A stretch of 63,703 bases of DNA, filler included, from Reclinomonas americana ATCC 50394 (taxonomy: Eukaryota), in assembly GCA_048213135.1 (NCBI GenBank). It is 19 parts of 19 records of this genome, joined end to end, with 100 filler letters (N's around TTAATTAATTAA, not from the genome) between each part and the next. Parts side by side here need not be neighbours in the genome. Positions count along the whole stretch, not along the records: positions 58,904 to 62,497 come from AFZH01019988.1; 18 more parts are not named here. One strand, written 5' to 3'. A model generated the notes under the pieces. The model was not told the DNA's origin and ran no database searches. It was given only the letters and a program-made list of their open reading frames with translations. How positions within the stretch are numbered: the stretch's first letter is position 1; every line of letters begins with the position of its first letter. Positions 59,532-60,475 of this stretch are shown here, piece by piece. Both the position numbers and the translations under genes were made by a program.

Positions 59532-60475
59532 ATGACTGCTCGACTGCGGCGAGTGCAGCGCGAGCTGAAAGACCTCCTCCAAGACCTGCCGCTCCCCGTC
59601 ACCGAAGCGTCACAGATCGCCGACGGCACGCGGAGTTTCATCGTCACTGAGCAGACGGTGCAAATGGCCCCGCCACCGATCGGCAGCGCCACCGGGTCGC
59701 CGGACGTCCTCGATTTCCTTGTGAGACCCTCACGTTGCGTCTCCTCGTGCACACACACGCTGCGCTGCAATGCACTCATCGTCCTCACGCTTCTCCTCTC
59801 ACAGAGGGTCCATTTGCGGGCATTCTCGTGCCGGTGAGGATGACGTTGCCGCAGAATTACCCGTTCGCCCCTCCTGAAGTGGCCATCGGCCTGGATCTCA
59901 TGTCGCCGTACTTCCATGGCCACGCGAGCTCGAGGCTCTCTGACAGCAAAGATCAGAGTGCCGTGTTCTTCCCTCTTCGTTGCAAGTGCCACAACGTGCC
60001 ACTGCTGTCGCGAGACGAGTGGCATCCGGCACGGCCCGTCACCGTTGCCCTCCGTGAGATCGAGCACCTCCTGGCTCTCGACAATGTCGATGGACTGAGG
60101 GAGCAAGCATCGGAGGGTTGCGCCGATCGCGAAGTGGCCAACCCGTGGCTGCAAGACCGAGTCACTGCCGAGCGACGCATGATTGTGCATGCCCTGCGAC
60201 ACAACCACCTCGGACGGGCACTGGATCCGGCGCGCCTGGGCGAAGCGCGTCGCATCGTGCTGGTCGCCGTGGAGAATGAGTATGACCAGGCACGACGAGC
60301 GCTGCAGGCTGTGCGGGAGCTGCAGCAGCACGCGGATGAGGAGGAGGAGGACGACGACGACGACCGCGGCTACCCGCTGCCGGCGCTGGTGTTGAATTGC
60401 TTCATTGCGGAGGATGCAGGAGTGCGGGTGTTCAAGCAAAAGCAGTTGTTGTTGGAAGGGGAGGTTGTACAATAA
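59532..60475 (+). CDS. Divergent ubiquitin-conjugating (E2/UEV-fold) protein with the WD40-array-type C-terminal tail; intron 59734-59804
   Basis: RLRRVQRELKDL, GPFAG, LPQNYPFAPPEV, YFHGH, LLSRDEWHP..V..ALREIEHLL; the GTTGCG...CAG intron joins the two ORFs in frame. Confidence 0.8.

What the first reader, a model, noticed from the sequence alone, without database searches (positions are those of the whole stretch)
60240..60475. Unrecognised ~55-aa C-terminal domain shared by the WD40 array proteins and an E2-fold protein
Seen: the WD40 tail [45 protein letters not shown] aligns with the E2-like protein's tail EYDQARRALQAVRELQQHADEEEEDDDDDRGYPLPALVLNCFIAEDAGVRVFK. The shared pattern is ExDxARxALxAVxExQ, an acidic loop, then LxxxVLxCFxxEDAxVxV. 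It sits at the extreme C-terminus of unrelated N-terminal folds. I recognise no named family for it. Known: a variable repeat domain plus a short conserved C-terminal helical box is the architecture of cullin-RING substrate receptors (WD40-SOCS box, ankyrin-PRANC/F-box). Inference: a lineage-specific adaptor box coupling a diversified WD40 repertoire to ubiquitin machinery.
Basis: partly seen in the sequence, partly recalled or inferred. Interest (0 to 1): 0.82.

Follow-up and report, generated by a model that had tools for sequence, protein, structure and literature searches.

The report
Orphan tail shared by WD40 and E2-like proteins
A short, previously unnamed C-terminal protein segment really is shared by a fast-diversifying family of WD40 propeller proteins and one divergent ubiquitin-conjugating-enzyme-like protein in a protist that is probably a jakobid, but what the segment binds or does is still unknown.

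Summary
Eight WD40 genes in the window end in a conserved tail of about 60 aa. An HMM built from those tails alone hits the C-terminus of the E2-like ORF at 26 bits, and 0 of 2000 shuffles exceed 11.2 bits. An HMM built only from three outside proteins hits it at 47.9 bits, E 7.6e-14.

The family is tiny. Only 3 of 1.84 billion representative proteins match. All three are beta-propeller plus tail, and one is a Reclinomonas americana EST product. No Pfam or PDB sequence family matches.

The tail is under purifying selection, with dN/dS about 0.28. The three top-face positions of each WD40 blade have dN (0.97) above dS (0.58), so the heads vary while the tail stays constant.

Caveats:
- The window is 19 unlinked contigs joined by spacers, so there is no synteny between the WD40 genes and the E2-like gene.
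- The E2 fold is only weakly supported: UQ_con 20.5 bits against a cut-off of 27.
- The tail models are of low confidence.

The adaptor-box reading is plausible but untested. SOCS, F-box and PRANC membership is not supported.

The parts
59532..59720 (+). E2-like gene, inferred exon 1 (63 codons, begins with an R-x-x-x-R-E-L-K-D-L-type N-terminal helix)
   Evidence: Read. It has no Pfam hit and no E2 hit in PDB sequences. Assignment to the gene rests on the GT..AG intron that restores the frame. There is no RNA evidence.
59721..59806 (+). inferred 86-nt GT..AG intron with a pyrimidine tract before the acceptor
   Evidence: Sequence. Read-through of exon 1 stops at 59837, in a frame other than that of exon 2. 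This is an inference and was not confirmed by reads (one search listed no run).
59807..60475 (+). E2-like gene, exon 2 (222 codons plus stop): divergent UBC-like core, helical linker and the shared tail
   Evidence: UQ_con E 3.7e-4, 20.5 bits, below the cut-off of 27. Nearly all of the 60 PDB sequences shown are E2s, at E 0.04-0.8, with two collinear stretches. The first three Atlas clusters are UQ_con families at 0.89.
60260..60454 (+). shared tail module in the E2-like protein (helix, acidic loop, hydrophobic C-F-x-x-E-D element)
35280..36365 (+). complete WD40-plus-tail gene (361 aa); tail at 36180-36365
   Evidence: The AF2 model is a 7-bladed propeller with pLDDT >90. The tail (301-361) is modelled as two helices at pLDDT 36-57.
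32256..33335 (+). complete WD40-plus-tail gene (359 aa); tail at 33150-33335
30572..31660 (+). complete WD40-plus-tail gene (362 aa); tail at 31475-31660
30171..30356 (+). tail of a WD40 gene cut by the contig start; the next gene starts 216 nt downstream (head-to-tail array)
33837..34736 (+). WD40-plus-tail gene lacking its 5' end at a contig start; tail at 34551-34736
16274..16459 (+). tail of a WD40 gene cut by the contig start
16670..17753 (+). WD40-plus-tail copy whose body (frame ends at 17545) and tail (17568-17753) lie in different frames: a frameshifted copy or an assembly error
   Evidence: the upstream codons of this tail contain a stop.
18359..18822 (+). WD40 copy with a truncated tail: homology to the other copies ends abruptly after the C-F-L-V-E-D codons
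   Evidence: the DNA alignment breaks at column 134.

Best explanation
The tail is a real, lineage-restricted protein module of about 55-60 residues. It consists of an amphipathic helix, a mostly acidic loop ending in a conserved Arg, and a hydrophobic element with an invariant C-F-x-x-E and a near-invariant D-A-x-V. It sits at the extreme C-terminus of beta-propeller proteins and of one divergent UBC-like protein.

Shown:
- The tails are homologous.
- The tail is under purifying selection.
- The module is not needed to close the propeller, because seven complete blades precede it.
- The WD40 heads diversify at their top-face positions while the tail stays constant.

Inferred: the tail is a constant docking or assembly box. 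It would tether variable ligand-binding heads, and the E2-like head, to one common partner or to each other. The WD40 family would then work as a set of interchangeable receptors feeding one downstream machine, possibly a ubiquitin-type conjugation step. The partner is unknown.

The confidence of 0.4 is for the docking-box mechanism. That the tail is a true homologous domain is about 0.95.
For: Homology:
- WD40-only HMM against the E2 tail: 26 bits, with 0 of 2000 shuffles above 11.2 bits.
- Outside-only HMM against the E2 ORF: 47.9 bits, E 7.6e-14 among 1538 ORFs.

The same module follows three further propeller proteins of different sequence (P0001, P0002, P0003). One of them is an EST product of Reclinomonas americana, so the module is transcribed in a relative.

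Constraint: tail dN/dS is 0.28 (ratio of means over 21 pairs, all below 0.6).

Heads vary, tail constant:
- Three top-face codons per blade: mean dN 0.97.
- Framework: mean dN 0.16, dS 0.58.
- Tail: mean dN 0.11.

The propeller is complete without the tail: 28 strands, pLDDT >90. The tail is modelled as two helices that are not confidently packed. In the E2-like model the first tail helix has pLDDT 75-80.
Against: No partner is known and no interaction was shown.

Both structure models of the tail are of low confidence (pLDDT 36-57; 53-80), so even helix versus strand for the second element is open.

Only one non-propeller bearer is known. It could be a one-off 3'-end capture.

The E2-like head is weakly supported and lacks the Asn of the HPN motif (recalled motif; read).

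The dN/dS pairs are not independent. Gene conversion in a tandem array could homogenise the tail. The top-face positions were taken from recalled literature after I had seen the variability pattern.
Confidence: 0.4

Rival explanations
1. The tail is a self-association module, such as a helical-hairpin dimer or four-helix bundle, that merely oligomerises its bearers. It would have no specific link to ubiquitin, and its presence on the E2-like protein would be incidental domain shuffling.
For: AF2 models it as helix-loop-helix in both contexts. The second element is hydrophobic all round (alignment), as expected for a buried bundle helix. Low single-chain confidence is typical of segments that fold only on assembly (general knowledge).
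Against: There is no positive evidence for self-association. The conserved acidic loop and the invariant Arg, Cys-Phe and Glu are more than a generic coiled coil needs.
Confidence: 0.2
2. The tail is a localisation, regulatory or turnover signal, for example targeting to a cell structure or organelle surface, an autoinhibitory flap or a degron, rather than an adaptor.
For: It lies at the extreme C-terminus in all 12 bearers. In jakobids a set of WD40 proteins (Gcp1-3) is reported to carry C-terminal peroxisomal signals (PMC8134430, passages read).
Against: The last residues are not conserved between bearers: L-R-L, M-Y-L, D-L-R, L-W-W and V-V-Q. A PTS1-type signal is therefore unlikely. None of the four tail motif strings searched occurs in the 6 supplementary files of that paper held as text. 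The module is about 55 residues with an internal conserved core, longer than usual sorting signals.
Confidence: 0.15
3. The tail is a true, very divergent member of the SOCS/BC-box (or F-box/PRANC/VHL-box) class and binds Elongin C or Skp1. The WD40 proteins would then be cullin-RING substrate receptors.
For: The architecture is analogous to WD40-SOCS-box proteins (recalled). The core has a hydrophobic residue four positions before the invariant Cys (I/L/V/M-x-x-x-C), as in a BC box (recalled consensus).
Against: 0 of 11 tails match SOCS_box, F-box, PRANC or VHL models at E<=10. The BC-box +4 hydrophobic position is an invariant Glu here. No E2 is known to carry such a box (recalled). The position four before the Cys is Leu in only 1 of 11 tails.
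Confidence: 0.07
4. The E2-like gene simply captured the 3' end of a propeller gene. The tail is functional in the WD40 family but is a passive passenger in the E2-like protein.
For: There is one E2-like bearer against 11 propeller bearers. The residues just before the tail in the E2-like protein (R-R-I-V-L-V-A-V) resemble the last propeller strand (T-V-R-V-W-S).
Against: The E2 tail is only about 42% identical to the window's WD40 tails, yet it keeps every invariant residue. This argues for long retention under constraint rather than a recent accident.
Confidence: 0.1

Closest known systems
WD40-SOCS-box proteins (WSB1/WSB2 type) and other cullin-RING substrate receptors (recalled, not fetched)
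   Same: A WD40 propeller is followed by a short conserved C-terminal helical box. The head is variable and the box constant.
   Different: No SOCS_box Pfam match in 0 of 11 tails. The BC-box +4 position is an invariant Glu. The box also sits on an E2-like protein, which has no precedent known to me. No Elongin C binding was tested.
E2 enzymes with functional C-terminal extensions: Cdc34/UBE2R acidic tail, UBE2K UBA domain (recalled)
   Same: A UBC-like core is followed by a C-terminal extension containing an acidic run (E/D x9 in the E2-like protein).
   Different: Here the extension is homologous to the tail of propeller proteins. The acidic loop is not universal: P0002 has a basic and acidic mix. 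The core has H-G-H in place of HPN and scores below the UQ_con cut-off.
Hypervariable WD40 repeat arrays of fungal NWD/HET-E-type proteins (recalled)
   Same: Near-identical WD40 repeats with replacement changes concentrated at the top-face positions: dN 0.97 against dS 0.58.
   Different: Those fungal proteins carry N-terminal effector and NACHT domains. These are small propeller-only proteins of about 360 aa with a C-terminal tail, arranged as a head-to-tail gene array.
Gcp1-3, the Pex7-like WD40 proteins of miT2SS-bearing protists including jakobids (PMC8134430, passages read)
   Same: They are lineage-restricted WD40 proteins in the same group of protists, discussed together with a ubiquitin-like protein (Gcp4).
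   Different: [quoted passage not shown] No Naegleria or Andalucia protein was among the 3 library hits. The window's repeats are canonical WD40.

Membership tests
SOCS box (Pfam SOCS_box) | Match to the family profile | tested here: not met
   hmmscan of 11 tails against Pfam-A at E<=10. No SOCS_box hit. Only three unrelated single-member hits were found.
SOCS box / BC box | BC-box consensus [STP]-L-x3-C-x3-[AILV] (recalled) | tested here: not met
   Alignment. Four positions before the invariant Cys stands I/L/V/M (Leu in 1 of 11). Four positions after it stands an invariant Glu, not a hydrophobic residue.
SOCS box / F-box / VHL box | Binding to Elongin C or Skp1 | not testable with these tools
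F-box, PRANC, VHL (Pfam) | Match to the family profile | tested here: not met
   No such family among the hits of 11 tails at E<=10.
Ubiquitin-conjugating enzyme, UBC fold (Pfam UQ_con) | Profile match above the curated cut-off | tested here: inconclusive
   Exon 2 scores 20.5 bits (E 3.7e-4) against a cut-off of 27, over residues 2-32 only. Nearly all of the 60 PDB sequences shown are E2s, but at E 0.04-0.8. The first Atlas clusters are UQ_con families at 0.89, a lead only. Exon 1 gives nothing. The spliced protein could not be submitted as one sequence.
Ubiquitin-conjugating enzyme (active E2) | HPN motif and catalytic Cys about 8 residues before the conserved Trp (recalled) | tested here: inconclusive
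   H-G-H stands where HPN aligns (first alignment). Two Cys (R-C-K-C-H) lie 11 and 13 residues before the W-H-P-A motif, after an insertion. The Asn is absent and a Cys candidate is present.
WD40 beta-propeller | Seven WD40 repeats forming a closed propeller | tested here: met
   PF00400 at E 1e-73 to 1e-82 with 7 stretches in three genes. The AF2 model has 28 strands, pLDDT >90 and pTM 0.81.
CTLH/LisH-type helical modules of GID/CTLH ligase subunits | Significant sequence match | tested here: not met
   The only PDB profile hit is a GID8 homologue fragment at E 0.29, 14.2 bits, over 26 residues. No CTLH Pfam hit.

The most novel reading that the evidence does not exclude
The tail is a docking module that pairs a dedicated E2-like enzyme, directly or through one scaffold, with a large, rapidly diversifying repertoire of WD40 receptors. 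This would give this protist lineage a receptor-array-guided ubiquitylation system built on a box unrelated to SOCS, F-box or DWD motifs. It could be a self/non-self or prey/parasite-recognition system analogous to fungal NWD repertoires.
Probability: 0.1. Interest if true: 0.85.

Novelty: new variant of a known kind. Interest (0 to 1): 0.45.

Why it matters
If the tail is a docking box, it would be a new, independently evolved way of attaching interchangeable substrate or ligand receptors to a conjugation machine, found in an early-branching and little-studied eukaryotic group.

The WD40 family itself is of interest. It is a head-to-tail array whose top-face residues change faster than silent sites. 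That is the signature of recognition repertoires under diversifying selection, which are poorly documented outside fungi, plants and animals.

As it stands, the finding is a well-supported orphan domain of narrow distribution. It has one unusual second architecture and no functional data.

Tried and rejected
Searches for relatives and context:
- Whole genome: none is held, so the proteome-wide list of partner domains could not be made.
- Public runs: none was listed for 59300-60700 and no RNA holder was listed. The splice site and expression of the E2-like gene are therefore unverified.
- Word-indexed homologue searches. E2 exon 2: 0 of 1288 candidates scored. WD40 tail region: 0 of 51. Tail profile against longer proteins: 2 of 8000 scored candidates, the same P0002 and P0003.
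- Contig scans with the tail profile or the E2 exon. Genome contigs: 0 of 19 and 0 of 528 pattern matches confirmed. Metagenome contigs: 0 of 101.
- Atlas search with the tail: no usable hit.
- PDB sequence search with exon 1: only one irrelevant hit at E 0.52.
- Earlier-findings look-ups: nothing for this genome or these sequences. One unrelated giant-virus note was returned.

Structure and binding:
- Complex prediction of the E2 tail (residues 136-222 of exon 2) with a WD40 tail: no verdict (score 0.00, controls not run, alignments not used; onward, result). This is no evidence either way.
- Fold searches were not run. The tail is below pLDDT 60 in the WD40 model and the E2 core is below 50, so matches would be meaningless.

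Readings rejected:
- PTS1 reading: rejected because the last three residues differ among bearers.
- Zinc-knuckle reading of the three Cys plus His in the window's WD40 tails: rejected because only one Cys is kept in the E2-like protein and in P0002.
- Assembly chimera: rejected because the E2 tail is only about 42% identical to any WD40 tail.

Literature: searches found no description of this module. [quoted passage not shown]

Full report
What the window is. The 63,703-base window is not one locus. It is 19 short contigs (1.0-9.9 kb) joined by identical spacers of 44 N, TTAATTAATTAA and 44 N. The first three contigs (1-16020, GC 0.67) are bacterial. They carry a transketolase, a DctP-type solute-binding protein and a PPK2. 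The other 16 contigs (GC 0.53-0.60) are eukaryotic, with GT..AG introns and (CT)n/(CA)n microsatellites at many contig ends. The WD40 genes and the E2-like gene lie on different contigs, so nothing can be said about their linkage. No whole genome is held.

The observation. Eight + strand reading frames end in a tail of about 61 aa that starts P-L-G-L-A-R and directly follows the last WD40 blade. Three genes are complete, at 361, 359 and 362 aa. Stop-to-next-ATG distances of about 211-319 nt show a head-to-tail array.

The E2-like gene has an inferred 63-codon exon 1 (59532-59720), an 86-nt GT..AG intron, and exon 2 (59807-60475). The tail lies in the same exon as the UBC-like core.

Tests of the shared tail:
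- An HMM built only from the eight WD40 tails aligns to exon-2 residues 157-209 at 26.0 bits (E 3.3e-10 for one sequence). 0 of 2000 shuffles of the E2 tail exceeded 11.2 bits.
- Against all 1538 six-frame ORFs of the window, the E2 ORF is the only hit besides the WD40 genes (26.6 bits, E 3.5e-7). The next hit scores 5.2 bits.
- An HMM built only from three proteins found outside the window hits the E2 ORF at 47.9 bits (E 7.6e-14). This is independent confirmation.
- Identity of the E2 tail to the window's WD40 tails is 23-25 of 57. That excludes an assembly chimera.
- Invariant over all 11 aligned tails are E8, R31, L33, C40, F41 and E44. Near-invariant are A12, V19, E24, V37, R39, D45, A46, V48 and R52.

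How widespread it is. A profile of nine tails, read against 1,835,955,588 representative proteins, found three proteins at E<=0.001.
- P0001 (116 aa) is a WD40 fragment plus tail. It is named by its source as a Reclinomonas americana EST product in EukProt.
- P0002 (394 aa) and P0003 (381 aa) are unnamed Logan assemblies. They have divergent propeller bodies, by their precomputed Pfam lists, and the tail sits at the very end.

The word-indexed searches added nothing, nor did the contig scans. The organism is therefore probably a jakobid or a close relative. This is an inference from the single named hit. The module is very narrowly distributed in what is public. All known bearers other than the window's E2-like protein are beta-propellers.

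Is it a named domain? None of the 11 tails matched a Pfam family consistently at E<=10. There were three unrelated single hits, and no SOCS_box, F-box, PRANC, VHL or CTLH. The profile against all PDB chain sequences gave only a GID8-homologue fragment at E 0.29 over 26 residues, and a designed repeat protein at E 0.96. Neither is significant. The Atlas gave no usable hit for the tail. Literature searches turned up no description. The one thematically close paper (PMC8134430, passages read) describes Pex7-like WD40 proteins (Gcp1-3) and a ubiquitin-like protein (Gcp4) in jakobids and others. None of the four tail motif strings I searched for occurs in its six supplementary files held as text.

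The heads. The WD40 head is unambiguous. PF00400 matches with seven stretches at E 1e-73 to 1e-82. The AlphaFold2 model has 28 strands in seven blades at pLDDT >90 and pTM 0.81. The N-terminal strand precedes the first G-H, and the last blade ends just before the tail, so the propeller is complete without the tail.

The E2 head is weaker:
- UQ_con at 20.5 bits, below the curated 27, covers only the Y-P-F-x-P-P region.
- Nearly all of the 60 PDB sequences shown are E2 enzymes, but at E 0.04-0.8. Two stretches are collinear, query 2-52 and 67-126.
- The first three Atlas clusters are UQ_con families at 0.89 with 172-174 shared features.
- Exon 1 matches nothing.
- Where HPN aligns the protein has H-G-H. 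About 20 extra residues follow. Two cysteines lie 11 and 13 residues before a W-H-P-A motif (the canonical motifs are recalled).

I therefore call it a probable, divergent UBC-fold protein of uncertain catalytic competence. The spliced protein could not be given to the tools as one sequence, which limits this test.

The tail's structure. In the WD40 model the tail (301-361) is two helices (301-324 and 331-355) at mean pLDDT 57 falling to 36. In the model of E2 exon 2 (mean pLDDT 52, core unusable) the tail is again helix-loop-helix, with the first helix at pLDDT 75-80 and the second at 53-67. The alignments are shallow and mostly paralogues. The fold is therefore not established, and the second, very hydrophobic element could equally be a beta-hairpin.

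Selection. Among seven intact tails, all 21 pairwise NG86 dN/dS values are below 0.6. The ratio of means is 0.28.

In the propeller, amino-acid variation among six copies clusters at the positions after G-H, before the S of the first strand, and next to the Asp of the S-G-x-x-D turn. I used the three canonical top-face positions per blade. These were recalled from the WD40 literature and chosen after I had seen the pattern. One spurious G-H anchor added two framework columns, which makes the estimate conservative. Results:
- Top-face positions: mean dN 0.97.
- Framework: mean dN 0.16, dS 0.58.
- Tail: mean dN 0.11, dS 0.40.

So the putative ligand face changes faster than silent sites, while the framework and the tail are conserved.

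Caveats on the selection estimates:
- The pairs are not independent.
- NG86 saturates at these distances.
- Gene conversion within an array can distort both measures.

Two copies are damaged. One has body and tail in different frames (16670-17753). One loses homology right after the C-F-L-V-E-D codons (18610-18822), perhaps at the edge of the array.

Mechanism. Three points are shown: a constant, constrained C-terminal module; hypervariable propeller heads; and the same module on a UBC-like head. The inference is that the module is a docking or assembly box that brings different heads to one partner or to each other.

This is the reading I commit to, at about 0.4. Short constant boxes on variable heads are a recurrent solution for adaptor systems, and the module is dispensable for either head's fold.

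Rivals are a plain self-association module (0.2), a localisation, regulatory or turnover signal (0.15), a passive 3'-end capture in the E2-like gene (0.1) and true SOCS/BC-box membership (0.07). Membership in SOCS, F-box, PRANC or VHL was tested by profile and by the BC-box consensus and was not met. This lowers 'it is a SOCS box', not 'it works like one'.

Verdict. It is a new small domain family with an unusual pair of architectures. It is of moderate interest now and of high interest if a partner links it to conjugation.

Noticed in passing
whole window; spacers at 7860-7959, 11908-12007 and 16 more: The window is 19 contigs joined by N44-TTAATTAATTAA-N44 spacers. Any reasoning from gene neighbourhood across a spacer is invalid.
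   Followed up: yes
1-16020: Three contigs of GC 0.67 are bacterial: a transketolase (3548-5659, minus strand), a DctP TRAP solute-binding protein (2-967) and PPK2 (12568-13545, minus strand). This is probably a food or contaminant bacterium in a protist assembly.
   Followed up: partly
16670-17753 and 18359-18822: Two WD40 copies are damaged. In one, a frameshift separates body and tail. In the other, homology ends abruptly inside the tail after the C-F-L-V-E-D codons, possibly the end of the array.
   Followed up: partly
WD40 genes 29209-36365: Replacement changes concentrate at the top-face positions of each blade (dN 0.97 against dS 0.58). This is a signature of diversifying selection in a head-to-tail gene array.
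   Followed up: partly
50000-50656 (+): An exon with a MutL C-terminal dimerisation domain (E 7e-13). This is a eukaryotic MutL-homologue gene on the 9.9-kb contig.
   Followed up: no
54382-58713 (-): A run of short minus-strand ORFs, many ending in ...L-L-R, looks like a many-exon repeat gene. The one ORF scanned (58096-58713) gave no Pfam hit.
   Followed up: no
60746-61000 (+), downstream of the E2-like gene: A second small gene starts about 270 nt after the E2-like stop codon (M-V-R-H-S-F...). Its first exon has no Pfam hit.
   Followed up: no
tail profile positions 11-36: A weak, non-significant match (E 0.29) to a GID8-homologue fragment in the PDB, over the first helix, the acidic loop and the start of the second element. 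This is a lead only.
   Followed up: partly
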